Assembly (NCBI RefSeq): GCF_009914755.1
Contig: NC_060931.1
DNA: 64,000 bases
Reading direction: 5' to 3' (one strand)
Source: the human T2T-CHM13v2.0 reference genome, Homo sapiens
Under the pieces are notes generated by a model. That model was not told where the DNA came from. It did not search any database and saw nothing but the letters and a program-made list of their open reading frames with translations. The translations under genes were made by a program, and so were the position numbers. Each line of letters starts with the position of its first letter. Positions within the stretch are counted from its first letter, which is position 1. Shown piece after piece: positions 7,176-28,386 of the stretch.

Positions 7176-7643
7176 TAAGGGAGGAGACCACCCCTCATGT
7201 TGTCTTATGCCCAATTTCTGCCTCCAAAGAAAGAAGAAGTAAAAACTAAAAGGCAGAAATGAAATCCACAAGCAGACAGCCTGGTGCCACACCCTGGGCC
7301 TGGTAGTTAAAGATTGACCCCTGACCTAATCAGTTATGTTATCTATACATTACAGACATTGTATAGAAAAGCACTATGAAAATCCCTGTCCTGTTCTGTT
7401 CTGTTCTGTTCTAATTACCGGTGCATGCAGCCCGCAGTCACGTACCCCCTGCTTGCTCAGTTGATCACGACCCTCTCACGCGGACTCTGTTAGAATTGTG
7501 CGCCCTTAAAAGGGACAGGAATTGCTCACTCGGGGAGCTCGGTTGTTGGAGATGTGAGTCTTGCTGAAGCTCCCGGCCAAATAAAGCCCTTCCTTCTTTA
7601 ACTCAGTGTCTGAGGGGTTTTGTCTGCGGCTTGTCCTGCTACA
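7176..7643 (+). mobile_element. 5' LTR (LTR2 family)
   Basis: TAAGGGAGGAGACCACCCCTC...GTCCTGCTACA; TATA-like CTTAAAA 7505-7511; AATAAA 7580-7585. Confidence 0.93.
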
Positions 7644-7648
7644 TTTCT

Positions 7649-7666
7649 TGGTTCCCTGACTGGGAA
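7649..7666 (+). promoter_or_regulatory. Primer-binding site complementary to the tRNA-Glu 3' end
   Basis: TGGTTCCCTGACTGGGAA vs expected TGGTTCCCTGACCGGGAA (1 mismatch), 5 nt after the LTR end. Confidence 0.9.
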
Positions 7667-7893
7667 GCAAGGTGATTAATGGACGGTCAAGGCAGCCCCT
7701 TAGGCGGCTTAGGCCTGCCCTGTGGGGGACTCTGGCCAGCTTGAGCGACGCAGATCCTGAGAGCGCTCCCGGGTAGGCAACTGCCCCGGTGGAATGCCTT
7801 GCCAGAGCAGTGCGTGGCAGGCCCCCGTGGAGGATCAATGTGGTGGCTGATCACCAGGAAGGAATTGGCACTTGGAGTCCGGACATCTGAAAC

Positions 7894-7902
7894 TTGGTAA
7901 GA
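7894..7902 (+). promoter_or_regulatory. Retroviral leader splice donor
   Basis: TTG|GTAAGA (GT at 7897-7898) between the PBS and the gag ATG, the usual position of a major splice donor. Confidence 0.7.
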
Positions 7903-8184
7903 CTAGTCTTTGGAACTTGCCCACTCCATTTGAGTGGAAGCGTGGCCTGATCACCCATGGCATACCTATACCGGCACTTTGGTTTTTGTTTTTGACTTGA
8001 CTTGGATTGCTTGATACTTTGGTTTTGGTTTTCACATGGCTTGGATTTCTTGATACTCTGATTTTGGTTTTGATTCTGGTTTGGTGTAAACTGTAAAAGT
8101 GTGTGTGTGTGGGTGCCCTTTTTACTCGTTCTTTGTTTTGTGTTGTGCATGTGGTGTGAGCGTGGTGTTTTGTCTTGAAGAAGC

Positions 8185-8507
8185 ATGGGTCAGGCACAAA
8201 GTAAGCCCACCCCACTAGGAACTATGCTGAAAAATTTCAAGAAAGGATTTAAGGGAAACTATGGAGTACTGTGACACCAGGAAAACTTAAAACTTTGTGT
8301 AAGATAGACTGGCCAGCATTAGAGGTGGTTTGGCCATCAGAAGGAAGCCTGGACAGGTCCCTTGTTTCAAAGGTATGGCACAAGGTAACCTGTAAGCCAG
8401 GGCACCCAGACCAGTTCCTGTACATAGACACTTGGTTACAGCTGGTTTTAGAGCCCCGTCGTCGGCCCTCCCCACCCCGCACAATGGCTGAGACAACAGC
8501 AGCATAA
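8185..8507 (+). pseudogene. gag matrix remnant, frameshifted and truncated
   Basis: MGQAQSKPTPLGTMLKNFKKGFKGNYGV, then a frameshift into TPGKLKTLCKIDWPALEVVWPSEGSLD...HPDQFLYIDTW (gammaretrovirus-like MA motifs). Confidence 0.85.
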
Positions 8508-24508: not shown

Positions 24509-25448
24509 TCTTCTCTGTTATTATGTGAGAGTGGCTCTTTCCACCAAGCCAAGGATTCAGTTATTCAGAGATTGAGTCCTGGTCCCATGGAGCCCAGAAC
24601 ACCAGCAGTAATCCAGCTCATGCCTCTCTCTGGGGGGCATGAGAGGACCTGTGGTGGGAGGTGGAGGCCTTAGCAGAGGGTCGAGCCGAGTTCTGCCACT
24701 TGGCCCCCATGAATTTATTAGTTGCATGCTTTGATACATGTCTCCGGGTTATCAGCACAATCACACTTTGAAAAAGTGTTTTGAGTCCCTTGATTTATCT
24801 TTTTGTCATTGTTGTTCAGAATAGTTTTCACTCAAAGGCAAGAACATGCTTTTAAACTGACCTTTTAAACTTTGTAAAGCTTATGCCACAAAGAGACACA
24901 TGAAAGGAACAATAAGTACATTCTCTATGTGGAAGCATAATTGAAGTCTCCTCTGGTGATGAGATCTATGGGAACCCGGCACAAAGCATCTGAGCTGGGC
25001 TCTTGTGCTGATGGATGGCCCTCTGGGTGGAAGTCCCATGACCAGAGAGAGAGGCCAAGCTGTACCCTACCCAGTGGAAACATTCCCACCATCTCAGCGG
25101 GCTCATGGCCACCTGCCTACCCTCAGGAGCCAAGGGAACCACTTGGGAGATTTGGCCCTTGTCCTGCGGTCTGCAGGAAGCCATGGAAGTTTCTGAGCAG
25201 GGGAAGGATGTGGAAAATAGAGGCAAGACCAAAGTAGAGCATTTGAAGCCAGCAGCCTGGGTTTGAATCCTGACTCTGGCACTTCTAAGTTGTGTGACCT
25301 TGTGTAAGCCACCTAACTTCTGTGAGAATCATCTGGCATTGAGCACCCATTTATGGAGCACTGGCTACATGCTGGACACCTGGGATCCAGAGGAGACCAA
25401 GAGAATACTGCAGTCGTTTCTTCTTCCTTGCTTATAACTGTTACCATG

Positions 25449-25909
25449 TGTATTAGTTTACCATTGCTGCCATAACAAATTACCACAAAGTGGCTTCAAA
25501 CAACATGAATTTATTATCTCATAGTTCTGGAGGGCTGAATTTCCACTGAGCTAAAGTCAAGGTGTTGAAAGGGCTGGTTGTTTCTTGAGGATCCAGGGGA
25601 GAATTTGTTTCCTTGCCCTTTTCACCTTCTAGTACCCACCTGGATTCCTTGGCTTGTAGCTCCTTCCTGTCTGCAAAGTAAATCACTCCAATCTCTGCTT
25701 CCATGTTCACATCGCCTTCTCTTCTCCCTTTACCTCTTTATGATAAGGATTCTTATAATTACATTGGTCCCATTTAGGTAATATAGGATAATTTCCTTGT
25801 CTAAAGATCCTTCACTTATTCTTATTTGCAGAATCTCTTTTGCCGTGTAAAGTAACATTCAGGGATTAGGATGTGGATATAATTGAGGGCCGTTATTCAG
25901 CCTATGACA
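25449..25909 (-). mobile_element. MaLR solo LTR (MLT1C/D-like)
   Basis: tgtattagtttaccattgctgccataacaaattaccacaaa...ttattcagcctatgaca. Confidence 0.8.
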
Positions 25910-27967
25910 CCACGTGACATTGCATTTAGCGTCTGTTCATTTTACGTATCTGTGTAATGTGTTTCTTCTGGGCAGTGAGGTAGGCCTGCCAGATAGCCTC
26001 ACATGTGTGCTGGGTGAGTGAGTGAATAAATGAATGAATGTGTTCTTTGGAGCTGAGAAGAAGCTGATGTTCCACTTGGGCTTTAGAGGATTAATGTGAG
26101 TTTGTTTGCCAGAGTATTCTAGATGGAATGAGCAGCTTATGAAAAGATATAGAGACATGAGCTGAGACGTTCAGCTTGGAGGAAATGCAGGCAGAGTGTG
26201 ATGGCCCAGAGTGAGACGAGGCTGGGCAGTAGGTGGCCAGATCATGGAGAGCCTTGCAGGATACCTTCATGGGCCTGGATTTTATTTTTATAAGGAAGCA
26301 GTAAATGTAGTTATTGCCCTTGTCTTTGGAGTTATCGCCTGGGTTTAAATTCCTGTGCTGCCACGGGATAGGGTTACTTGCTGTGTAACCCTAGGAAAAT
26401 TACTAAACATCTTTGAGGCTCAGTGAAATAAGTGCTTCATAAACCTGTTCTGAGAAGCAGATGACTTTTGAGGCTTGCAAAGCACTTAGCACAGTGTGTG
26501 GAACGGTCAAGGGAGCCTTTAGGAATGTATTGGCATTCTTGCTGTTATTTTAATACATGTGATTATTGTTATTATTGATGGTGATGATGGGGACTCTTTG
26601 AAGAATTTCAGCCAGGCTTCAGTGTCGTGGTCAGATTTGCTTTCTAGGAAGATGACTTTGGCAGCCATATAAAGATGTCAGGGGCCAAGGGTGGGTGACA
26701 CTAAGGGTCGGGAAACCAGTTCGGAGCCTATTAAAATAATCTAGGTGAGAGGTGAAGAGGCAGAGAGCAGAGGTGGGGGTTCAAGAGAGATGTTATTGGA
26801 TGCAGGATGTTGGAGAGATGTCTTTGCTGCTGCTGTTCCCTGCTTGAAATGGTTCAAGGAGGATTTTAGAGGCTTAGTACCAATGCCTTAGTCCTTGATT
26901 TTCAGAAAGGGACACTGAGGCACAGCAAGGGGAGGATGCCTTGCCTTCATCTCCAGATGAAACAGTGACAGACGGGATAGGCAGGGTAGAACCGAGGTCC
27001 TCAGCCCTTTGTTGCAGAGCAGGCGGAGGTGGGAGAAGTGTGGCTGGAAGAGGCTTCTGATGGAAGTGCAGTTCTTCATGGGTGGGGGTGCTCTGACACA
27101 AACTCAGTGTCGACTGCCCCTTCCACATCCCTCTAACCACCCCTCTATGCCTTAACTCCTCTTTCCAGCTCATTCTTCCACCAGTCCCCACAGGAATGCC
27201 TGTAGAATCCTGGTGGTGTTGGGCAGAGGGGTTTTGTGGTTTTGAATTAAGGCAAATGACTTGACTGAGTTGAGGAGGACACATGGAGGATGAGGACTGC
27301 CTGGGAGGGAGGGTGAGGGAGTTCTGTGTTCTAGCGCCAGTGAAAGAAACCTGGAGTCTGAAGAAGTGTGTACTCAGAGATTTGGTACTGTGCGTCCTCT
27401 AGCTCTTCCATTCACGCCCCTTCATACATCTTCAGGAGGAAACCAATTCAATGGAGTGCACCAGGGCAAGATTACGATTGTTACTTCAATCATATCTTAC
27501 CCTGCAAGGATGTTGAAGGAAAATATATTTCAATGCCACACTCAAAAGAGCTGTCACTTTTTAACATAGTAAATGGGTTTTCAGAGAGTGATGTAATATT
27601 GTTATTTTTAATACATTCTGTTTAGAAATGATTTTACTTTAGTTCAGGTCAATGTATGCTGGAGAACAGAAAAATCTAAAGGGAGCTTTAGAAAATGCTC
27701 CCTCAAAGGGTCCACCCTTAAAAGGTGGACCCTTTTAAGAAAGCTCTGTGTGCACATACCTGAATTTACAAATCAGAATCACAGGGCAATGTTTTAAGTA
27801 ACAGGAAGATACAGGAGGGTTCCTTTAAACACTTTGGTGCATGTCAGAGGTTTCTTATAGATAGCTGCTGATGGCTTTACAAGAAAGCTAGGAGAGAGGA
27901 AACAAACAAACAAAAAACATAGAGATGAGATGAACAAATTCTGGGCAATGATGACAAGAACTCGATT

Positions 27968-27998
27968 TGTGTGTGTGTGTGTGTGTGTGTGTGTGTGT
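27968..27998 (+). repeat. (TG)15 microsatellite
   Basis: Perfect TG run followed by TTTCCCAG. Confidence 0.95.
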
Positions 27999-28327
27999 TT
28001 CCCAGAAGTATTGCAGTGAAATTGGCGAGATAGCCTACATGCAGTGCTTGGCAAACGCCAACCTACAGAGCTGACCATCCTGTATTGGCTGGTGTATGAG
28101 TCTCTTTGTGAGAACACAGAATCGACAAGCATCATGGGGGCTATTTGGTCCCATCCCATGTGGAACCTGTGGCTGAGAGAGGGGGAGTATTCAAGGCACA
28201 CAGAGGCAAGGCCAAGACTAGAGAGACTTGTCTCCTGAATGCCTATCCATCGCTCTTAACAGTCTTCTCTGCCGTTTACATTTCTCTGTCAGTCTCCTCT
28301 GGTACATTGATATTTTCTATTTTCCAG

Positions 28328-28386
28328 GAAAAATCAGTTGCTGCCGTCTGACAAGGTGGATGGTGAGCTGGGTGCCCTGCGGCTCG
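28328..28386 (+). CDS. MINDY4: MINDY4 coding exon (about exon 6; 59 bp, phase 2 to 1)
   Basis: Acceptor ttttccag|G, donor CTCG|gtaggt; encodes KNQLLPSDKVDGELGALRL and joins in frame to the next exon; peptide recognised as FAM188B/MINDY4. Confidence 0.93.

What the first reader, a model, noticed from the sequence alone, without database searches (positions are those of the whole stretch)
7176..28386. Predicted HERV-E/Harlequin LTR-driven MINDY4 isoform with a retroviral start codon in frame with the catalytic domain
Seen: the provirus is sense to MINDY4 and has a TATA-like CTTAAAA at 7505. An ATG at 7838-7840 opens a stop-free frame MWWLITRKELALGVRTSET that ends at the donor TG|GTAAGA (7896/7897) in phase 2. 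The next host exon (28328) also starts in phase 2, so splicing gives ...SETW-KNQLLPSDK... and reads through all eight exons, including QNKGGPC. These exons contain no Met in about 224 codons, so a 5'-truncated transcript needs an upstream ATG like this one to keep the catalytic Cys. Known: HERV-E LTR2 elements act as alternative, often placental, promoters spliced into host genes (EDNRB, MID1, PTN, APOC1). Inference: a catalytic-domain-only deubiquitinase lacking the N-terminal region; the ATG may have arisen by ACG>ATG decay at this locus. Caveats: weak Kozak context (tcaATGt), an upstream uORF (7679-7744), an overlapping uORF (7794-7850), and phase match has a 1-in-3 chance of being accidental.
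Basis: partly seen in the sequence, partly recalled or inferred. Interest (0 to 1): 0.8.

Follow-up and report, generated by a model that had tools for sequence, protein, structure and literature searches.

The report
Old HERV-E provirus in MINDY4 intron
A decayed, partly deleted HERV-E provirus sits in the sense direction in a MINDY4 intron, and its leader could on paper splice in frame to the enzyme's catalytic exons, but that arrangement is common in this virus family and nothing I could reach shows the transcript or protein exists.

Summary
These are the ATG at 7838, the 59 nt to the donor TTG|GTAAGA (exon end 7896), the phase match to exon 28328, an open frame through all eight exons, and no Met in 223 host codons.

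The element is a roughly 4.45 kb deleted HERV-E-type provirus. Its LTRs lie at 7177-7643 and 11165-11626 and differ at 35 of 462 aligned sites.

The striking features are family properties, not properties of this locus. In 29 other genomic copies the donor is identical in 24 and the 59-nt spacing holds in 29. The start-codon site is a decaying CpG (ACG 12, ATG 12, ACA 4, CTG 1). Seven of the 29 carry the same ATG, open frame and donor. With a one-in-three phase match, about 8% of sense copies in coding introns would look like this by chance.

Translation from 7838 is disfavoured. Three upstream ATGs have better context, one upstream ORF (7794-7850) overlaps it, and its own context is the weakest.

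The hub's gene table has no transcript from the LTR. A placental EST survey and the searchable literature and supplements gave none either.

Verdict: an ordinary intronic provirus with an untested, low-probability chimeric potential.

The parts
7177..7643 (+). 5' LTR (LTR2-like), sense to MINDY4. It may begin a few bases earlier, near 7171.
   Evidence: Direct repeat with 11165-11626. 35 mismatches in 462 aligned sites plus one 5-bp indel. 90-94% identical to the 5' LTRs of many other copies. Its last 20 nt (7624-7643) match the reverse complement of a published LTR2B cloning primer at 19 of 20 positions; I compared this by eye from the primer printed.
7505..7511 (+). TATA-like CTTAAAA
   Evidence: The 10-mer CCCTTAAAAG is present in 22 of 29 other copies, so it is a family feature. 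Its function was not tested.
7580..7585 (+). LTR poly(A) signal AATAAA
   Evidence: AATAAA is present in 23 of 29 other copies.
7552..7557 (+). Upstream ATG 1 (ATG-TGA), -3 G context
   Evidence: In other copies the site reads ACA 10, ACG 8, ATG 7, other 4. The 3' LTR has ACG at the same place.
7650..7667 (+). Primer-binding-site-like 18-mer just after the LTR end
   Evidence: Read. The assignment to tRNA-Glu is recalled, not tested.
7679..7744 (+). Upstream ORF 2 (21 codons), +4 G context
   Evidence: The site reads ATG 11, ACG 9, ACA 4, other 5 in 29 copies.
7794..7850 (+). Upstream ORF 3 (18 codons), -3 G context. It overlaps and ends after the proposed start codon.
   Evidence: The site reads ATG 15, ACG 9, ACA 3, other 2 in 29 copies.
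7838..7896 (+). Proposed retroviral start codon and 19-codon (+2 nt) leader ORF, in weak context (-3 T, +4 T)
   Evidence: The nearest upstream in-frame stop is at 7742.
7897..7902 (+). Leader splice-donor motif GTAAGA (exon end 7896)
   Evidence: The 9-mer TTGGTAAGA is identical in 24 of 29 other copies, and the 59-nt spacing from the ATG site holds in 29 of 29. Use as a donor was not tested.
8253..8507 (+). gag matrix (MA) remnant
   Evidence: Pfam Gag_MA PF01140, E 1.2e-12, 48.1 bits.
8526..8686 (+). AG-rich simple repeat inside the provirus
   Evidence: Tandem Repeats Finder.
11165..11626 (+). 3' LTR with an intact AATAAA at 11563
28328..28386 (+). First MINDY4 coding exon after the provirus. 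Its acceptor is ttttccag|G, and its first base completes a codon.
   Evidence: Hub gene table.
38849..38965 (+). Exon where the MINDY-3/4 catalytic domain profile begins. It ends in ...QNK and has a GC donor.
   Evidence: PF13898 profile positions 1-44 match genome C7:30976855-30976983, which is window 38855-38983. Donor AAG|gcaggt.
40409..40497 (+). Exon starting GGPC. The Cys codon of QNKGGPC is at 40418-40420.
   Evidence: That this Cys is the catalytic residue is recalled, not tested.

Best explanation
This is an ordinary, old, internally deleted HERV-E-type (LTR2-like) provirus fixed in the sense orientation in a long MINDY4 intron.

Its leader keeps the family's conserved splice donor. 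CpG decay has turned four ancestral ACG sites in the R-U5-leader into ATGs. The fourth one (7838) lies 59 nt before the donor, as that site does in every copy examined. It therefore falls by a one-in-three chance in the phase of the next MINDY4 exon.

The in-frame 'retroviral start codon' is a by-product of family architecture plus decay. It is not evidence of a selected isoform. If the LTR ever fires, a leader-to-exon-28328 RNA is plausible. It would be translated mainly at the upstream ORFs, not as a catalytic-domain-only MINDY4.
For: Shown:
- Paired LTRs differing at 35 of 462 sites (7.6%). By the ~0.3%/My clock used by Le Dantec 2015 that is about 25 My.
- The provirus is only about 4.45 kb, with a Gag_MA remnant as the only Pfam hit among the three ORFs scanned.
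- The donor 9-mer is identical in 24 of 29 other copies, and the spacing is 59 nt in 29 of 29.
- The triplet at the 7838 site is ACG 12, ATG 12, ACA 4, CTG 1.
- ATG, open frame and GGTAAG donor occur together in 7 of 29 copies.
- All four leader ATGs lie at sites that read ACG, ACA or ATG in most other copies.
- The upstream ATGs at 7552, 7679 and 7794 have -3 G or +4 G. The ATG at 7838 has -3 T and +4 T. The upstream ORF 7794-7850 overlaps it.
- The hub's gene table shows one MINDY4 transcript of one, and no exon in the provirus.
- The placental EST survey of HERV-E loci (26 loci) does not include this one.
- Strict literature searches for MINDY4 with HERV-E (0 papers) and MINDY4 with LTR (1 paper, unrelated by title) gave nothing relevant.

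Inferred: the chance rate is about 7/29 x 1/3, or 8% per sense copy in a coding intron.
Against: - Absence of evidence is not strong here. I had no RNA-seq, CAGE or Ribo-seq.
- The large TE-TSS atlas files of PMC12963367 could not be read, and the control term EDNRB was also absent from the files that could be read.
- The PMC12999487 table was cut when stored. EST depth in 2007 was low.
- The 5' LTR keeps its TATA-like box and poly(A) signal, and the donor is intact, so nothing in the sequence forbids activity.
- Related LTR2 copies are reported to drive chimeric transcripts in B cells and lymphoma (CD5, FABP7).
- Sense intronic ERVs are generally counter-selected (abstract and passages of PMC1794541). 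A retained sense copy is therefore mildly unusual.
Confidence: 0.65

Rival explanations
1. The 5' LTR is an occasional alternative promoter, for example in tumours, demethylated cells, B-lineage cells or placenta. Its transcript splices 7896 to 28328 but is effectively non-coding or NMD-prone. Ribosomes start at the upstream ORFs and then find no in-frame Met.
For: The TATA-like box, the AATAAA and the family donor are intact. The host pre-mRNA already skips every cryptic acceptor and the 3' LTR poly(A) signal in this intron (inference from the hub's exon table). The LTR is 91-93% identical to L008 and L009, which by position are probably the HERV-E.CD5 and HERV-E.FABP7 LTR2 copies that make chimeric RNAs. 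Three upstream ATGs precede 7838. After 7838 the next ATGs in the modelled mRNA are all out of frame with short ORFs.
Against: No transcript evidence was found anywhere I could look: the hub table. [quoted passage not shown]
Confidence: 0.22
2. One reading: an LTR-driven mRNA is translated from ATG 7838 into an N-terminally truncated, catalytic-domain-only MINDY4 deubiquitinase with a 19-residue retroviral leader peptide.
For: The frame is open from 7838 through all eight exons. The PF13898 domain starts only at the exon at 38849, so the whole catalytic domain would be kept. There is no other Met in 223 host codons.
Against: The ATG has the weakest context (-3 T, +4 T), lies behind three better upstream ATGs, and sits inside the overlapping upstream ORF 7794-7850. 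The same ATG, frame and donor occur in 7 of 29 other copies, so no locus-specific selection is implied. No listed sense HERV-E chimera takes its start codon from the retroviral leader; they keep the host ATG, or shift to a host exon in the case of CD5. No transcript evidence was found.
Confidence: 0.05
3. The sense provirus acts on full-length MINDY4 transcripts instead. It would do so by premature polyadenylation at an LTR AATAAA, or by exonisation using an acceptor-like site in U5 (exon start 7607) with the leader donor. That exon would be 290 nt, frame-shifting and stop-containing, i.e. a poison exon.
For: There is an acceptor-like site with 16 of 20 pyrimidines before AG at 7605-7606. The exon to 7896 would be 290 nt, which is 2 modulo 3. 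Both LTRs keep AATAAA. PMC1794541 describes this mode (an LTR acceptor downstream of the poly(A) site plus an internal donor) for sense ERVs (passages).
Against: The hub's table shows no such exon or 3' end. The acceptor is only a pattern match from a crude pyrimidine filter. The copy has been tolerated for roughly 25 My.
Confidence: 0.08

Closest known systems
HERV-E LTR alternative promoters of EDNRB, MID1, PTN, DCAF6/IQWD1 and UBE2D2
   Same: A sense-oriented, partly deleted HERV-E provirus whose 5' LTR and leader could supply a first exon spliced to a host exon (Le Dantec 2015, Table 2 and text).
   Different: Those copies lie upstream of the gene or in intron 1, and the host start codon is kept. 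They have EST or RT-PCR support and placental hypomethylation. This copy lies deep in the coding region, would need a retroviral ATG, and has no expression evidence. PTN, MID1 and DCAF6 are LTR2B. This LTR aligns full-length and best with copies that are probably LTR2.
HERV-E.CD5 (exon 1B) and LTR2-FABP7 protein variants
   Same: LTR2-type HERV-E transcripts that change the N-terminus of a host protein.
   Different: For CD5 the review text states that the ORF shifts to host exon 3, so the variant starts at a host codon. For FABP7 the review says only that the chimeric transcript skips exon 1 and its ORF start site; it does not say where the variant starts. The FABP7 element is antisense. Both are experimentally documented, and this one is not.
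Generic sense intronic ERVs as sources of cryptic splice and poly(A) signals (van de Lagemaat, Medstrand and Mager 2006)
   Same: A sense-oriented provirus in an intron carrying a strong internal donor and LTR poly(A) signals.
   Different: No disruptive isoform is annotated here. The element seems to be tolerated.

Membership tests
HERV-E-type (LTR2 group) gammaretrovirus-like provirus | Two LTRs in direct orientation flanking an internal region | tested here: met
   7177-7643 and 11165-11626, 92.4% identical over 462 aligned sites.
HERV-E-type (LTR2 group) gammaretrovirus-like provirus | Sequence homology of the LTR and leader to other copies of the family | tested here: met
   42 matches in the own genome to the leader, from 40 scored of 239 candidates. 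LTR identity is 90-94% to most of the 29 copies compared. L008, L009 and L024 coincide approximately in position with HERV-E.CD5, HERV-E.FABP7 and clone 4-1 of Le Dantec Table 1. That positional equation across assemblies is my inference. The LTR end matches a published LTR2B primer at 19 of 20 positions (by eye).
HERV-E-type (LTR2 group) gammaretrovirus-like provirus | Primer binding site complementary to tRNA-Glu | not tested
   An 18-mer follows the LTR at 7650-7667. Its match to the 3' end of tRNA-Glu is recalled only.
HERV-E-type (LTR2 group) gammaretrovirus-like provirus | Gammaretroviral gag, pol and env remnants | tested here: inconclusive
   Gag_MA was found (E 1.2e-12). The two 3' ORFs scanned gave no Pfam family. 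My reading of them as integrase and TM remnants is recalled. HERV-E versus Harlequin internal sequence cannot be told apart here. Repbase describes Harlequin as an LTR2-HERVE-...-HERVE-LTR2 recombinant.
LTR-derived alternative promoter giving a chimeric host mRNA | Transcription start inside the LTR | not testable with these tools
   No CAGE, RAMPAGE or EST data were reachable. The locus is not among the 26 loci with placental ESTs.
LTR-derived alternative promoter giving a chimeric host mRNA | Observed splice junction from the retroviral donor to a host exon | not testable with these tools
   The motif and phase are compatible. There is no transcript in the hub's gene table. No MINDY4 or FAM188B row appears in the supplements that could be read.
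LTR-derived alternative promoter giving a chimeric host mRNA | Host open reading frame usable from the chimeric mRNA | tested here: inconclusive
   The host ATG is lost. Only the leader ATG 7838 restores the frame. It is the fourth ATG, in weak context, and is overlapped by an upstream ORF.
MINDY-3/4 deubiquitinase catalytic domain (PF13898) | Profile match over the Pfam cut-off | tested here: met
   Exon-wise matches on C7 over the cut-off: profile 1-44 at window 38855-38983, and 178-251 and 243-308 further downstream outside the window.
MINDY-3/4 deubiquitinase catalytic domain (PF13898) | Catalytic Cys motif | tested here: inconclusive
   QNKGGPC is present across the 38965/40409 junction. 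That this Cys is the nucleophile is recalled, not tested.

The most novel reading that the evidence does not exclude
In some tissue or tumour the LTR2-like 5' LTR fires and the conserved leader donor joins exon 28328. Leaky scanning or reinitiation then uses the CpG-decay-born ATG at 7838. The product would be a catalytic-domain-only MINDY4 with a 19-residue retrovirus-derived N-terminus. To my knowledge of the cases tabulated in Le Dantec 2015, this would be the first HERV-E chimera whose start codon comes from the retroviral leader.
Probability: 0.05. Interest if true: 0.55.

Novelty: already known. Interest (0 to 1): 0.18.

Why it matters
If the isoform were real, it would show that random CpG decay in a retroviral leader can create a start codon. 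That start codon would release the catalytic half of a deubiquitinase from its N-terminal region. This would be a new route to protein innovation or to tumour-specific antigens.

As it stands, the value is methodological. The 'in-frame retroviral ATG' pattern is expected by chance in roughly one in twelve sense HERV-E copies in coding introns. It should therefore not be scored as a signal without transcript data.

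Tried and rejected
I dropped that step. I located the domain with a family search of the own genome instead.

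3. Literature searches:
- MINDY4 with HERV-E gave 0 papers.
- FAM188B with LTR gave 1 paper, unrelated by title.
- MINDY4 with LTR gave 1 paper, unrelated by title.
- Telescope-style locus names gave 0 papers.
- MINDY4, FAM188B and HERV (at least two of three) gave 12 papers. The 4 that combine a gene name with 'herv' are proteome or gene-list papers by title.
- Three looser searches listed no paper containing MINDY4 or FAM188B. They were badly designed for the purpose.

4. Supplements searched for MINDY4 and FAM188B with 0 hits:
- PMC12060413, 1 file.
- PMC4419796, 5 files, with 1 further file not searched.
- PMC6771403, 7 files, with 1 further file not searched.
- PMC5513427, 5 files.
- PMC12963367, 7 files. 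This is uninformative, because the control term EDNRB was also absent and two large files were unreadable.
- PMC12999487, 4 files. One file was cut when stored. It has LTR2 and Harlequin rows but none for EDNRB, MID1 or DCAF6.

5. Papers not held: PMC164795, PMC110412 and PMC4151764. I therefore could not confirm which donor and TSS the EDNRB, PTN and FABP7 chimeras use.

6. Rfam over 6500-29000 gave 0 families.

7. I considered a locus-specific origin of the ATG as a sign of selection and rejected it. The same state occurs in 12 of 29 other copies and is mixed among the closest relatives.

8. Le Dantec 2015 puts the U3/R boundary at consensus positions 298-337 and the poly(A) signal at 399-435. 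Here AATAAA starts at LTR position 404 and the TATA-like motif at 329. The published start zone would therefore fall near 7474-7513. Either way the same three upstream ATGs are in the RNA.

Full report
**What is in the sequence.**
- CTTAAAA lies at 7505-7511 and AATAAA at 7580-7585.
- ATG at 7838-7840 opens MWWLITRKELALGVRTSET. It runs 59 nt to 7896, where TTG is followed by GTAAGA.
- The next annotated MINDY4 exon starts at 28328 behind ttttccag. Its first G completes the split codon TGG.
- The frame then reads KNQLLPSDK... and stays open through all eight exons of the window. The modelled product has 243 codons and no stop.
- The host frame has no Met and no stop in 223 codons.
- The QNKGGPC motif spans the 38965/40409 junction, with the Cys codon at 40418-40420.
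- A search of the window's own genome with Pfam PF13898 (MINDY-3/4 catalytic domain) places profile positions 1-44 at window 38855-38983. Later parts of the profile lie downstream of the window.
- A protein starting at 7838 would therefore keep the whole catalytic domain, plus about 55 host residues in front of it.

**What the element is.** Direct repeats at 7177-7643 and 11165-11626 are the two LTRs of a provirus in the same orientation as MINDY4.
- They differ at 35 of 462 aligned sites (28 transitions, 13 of them at CpG, and 7 transversions; K2P 0.081), plus one 5-bp indel.
- With the ~0.3%/My clock used by Le Dantec et al. 2015 (PMC4379568, section 2.1 read), that is about 25 My. This falls in the range they give for LTR2-group copies.
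- The whole element is only about 4.45 kb, so most of gag-pol-env is gone.
- Of the three internal ORFs I scanned, only 8253-8507 hit a family (Gag_MA, E 1.2e-12).
- An AG-rich simple repeat fills 8526-8686.
- An 18-mer directly after the LTR (7650-7667) looks like the primer binding site. Its tRNA-Glu identity is recalled, not tested.
- The leader (7640-7960) has 42 matches in the same genome, from 40 scored of 239 first-look candidates.
- The 5' LTR is 90-94% identical to most of the 29 copies I compared. It aligns only partially (77-82%) with a minority that are probably other subgroups.
- By approximate position, L008, L009 and L024 are the HERV-E.CD5, HERV-E.FABP7 and clone 4-1 copies of Le Dantec's Table 1. 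That equation across assemblies is my inference.
- 'HERV-E' versus 'Harlequin' cannot be decided here. Repbase describes Harlequin as a recombinant that begins and ends with LTR2-HERVE sequence (PMC5753468, passages).

**Is the arrangement more than chance?** I compared 29 other copies site by site with the window. I used pairwise alignments only and built no consensus.
- The donor 9-mer TTGGTAAGA is identical in 24 of 29.
- The distance from the ATG site to the donor is 59 nt in 29 of 29.
- The triplet at the ATG site is ACG in 12, ATG in 12, ACA in 4 and CTG in 1. That is the pattern of an ancestral CpG decaying on either strand.
But the change is recurrent, not special to this locus.
- Seven of 29 other copies carry ATG, an open 59-nt frame and an intact GGTAAG donor together.
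- With a one-in-three phase match, about 8% of sense copies in coding introns would offer an 'in-frame retroviral start codon' (inference).
- The TATA-like 10-mer (22 of 29) and AATAAA (23 of 29) are likewise family features. They say nothing about whether this particular LTR is active.

**Translation.** In the modelled RNA the ATG at 7838 is the fourth ATG.
- The earlier ones are 7552 (ATG-TGA, -3 G), 7679 (21 codons, +4 G) and 7794 (18 codons, -3 G).
- All three have a better context than 7838 (-3 T, +4 T).
- The third upstream ORF ends at 7850, so it overlaps the proposed start. A ribosome translating it passes 7838.
- After 7838 every ATG in the window's exons is out of frame with a short ORF, and the host frame offers no Met.
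- All four ATGs sit at sites that read ACG, ACA or ATG in most other copies. Only 1 of 29 other copies (L027) has ATG at all four. This copy therefore carries the maximal upstream-ATG burden.
- By the standard scanning model (established knowledge), initiation at 7838 would be inefficient, and an LTR-initiated RNA would behave largely as non-coding.

**Expression evidence.** I had no RNA-seq, CAGE or Ribo-seq data.
- The hub's gene table shows one MINDY4 mRNA (1 of 1) and the INMT-MINDY4 read-through. Neither has an exon in the provirus.
- Reiss, Zhang and Mager 2007 (PMC1950553, section with Table 1 read) mapped placental ESTs to 26 HERV-E loci. The only chr7 locus is PTN.
- Le Dantec 2015 tabulates 46 HERV-E loci and nine gene-associated ones. 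None is at MINDY4.
- In that table the sense chimeras lie upstream of the gene or in intron 1 and keep the host start codon. CD5 shifts to host exon 3.
- Strict full-text searches found no relevant paper: MINDY4 with HERV-E gave 0; MINDY4 with LTR gave 1, unrelated by title; FAM188B with LTR gave 1, unrelated by title; locus-style names gave 0.
- In one search, 12 papers held two of MINDY4, FAM188B and HERV. The 4 that combine a gene name with 'herv' are list-type papers by title.
- Supplements of six TE-chimera papers held no MINDY4 or FAM188B entry.
- These negatives are weak. In PMC12963367 the control term EDNRB was also absent and the two largest files were unreadable. The PMC12999487 table was cut when stored and lacks EDNRB, MID1 and DCAF6 too. 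One file each of PMC4419796 and PMC6771403 was not searched.

- Nothing in the sequence forbids the transcript.
- The donor motif is intact.
- The normal MINDY4 pre-mRNA demonstrably splices across this entire intron to 28328, ignoring cryptic acceptors and the 3' LTR poly(A) signal. An RNA that starts in the LTR and uses the donor would therefore probably land on 28328 (inference).
- Related LTR2 copies are reported as promoters in B cells and lymphoma.
- The TSS is uncertain. This does not change the upstream-ATG count.

**Rivals.**
- The LTR occasionally fires and gives a chimeric but effectively non-coding RNA. I put this at about 0.22.
About 0.05.
- The provirus acts on host transcripts through its poly(A) signals or through exonisation. 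About 0.08. An acceptor-like site would start an exon at 7607. With the donor at 7896 that gives a 290-nt, frame-shifting exon. It is a crude pattern match with no support in the annotation.

**Verdict.** The most likely reading (0.65) is an ordinary, roughly 25-My-old, deleted HERV-E-type provirus tolerated in a MINDY4 intron. Interest is low unless junction reads and initiation at 7838 are found.

Noticed in passing
window 38963-38971: The annotated MINDY4 exon ending at 38965 has a GC rather than GT donor (AAG|gcaggt), i.e. a GC-AG intron. It lies exactly at the QNK|GGPC catalytic-motif junction.
   Followed up: no
window exons 28328-58972 (host frame): There is no methionine in 223 consecutive MINDY4 codons. 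At a typical Met frequency of about 2% (a recalled figure) this would be a roughly 1% event. It means no internal AUG could rescue any 5'-truncated transcript in this stretch.
   Followed up: partly
window 7552, 7679, 7794, 7838: All four ATGs of the R-U5-leader lie at sites that read ACG, ACA or ATG in most other copies. In this copy all four decayed to ATG on the sense strand. Only 1 of 29 other copies (L027) shares that state.
   Followed up: yes
L019 (C24:62.40 Mb) and L020 (C23:154.20 Mb): Two HERV-E leader copies on the two sex chromosomes gave identical values at every site tabulated, including the same donor change (GGTAAC). They presumably lie in a shared X/Y region.
   Followed up: no
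window 7586-7608: There is a pyrimidine-rich tract ending in AG just after the LTR poly(A) signal (16 of 20 pyrimidines). It resembles the U5 cryptic acceptor described for sense ETn insertions in PMC1794541.
   Followed up: partly
window 7976-8071: A 39-nt tandem repeat of 2.4 copies lies in the proviral leader/gag-upstream region.
   Followed up: no
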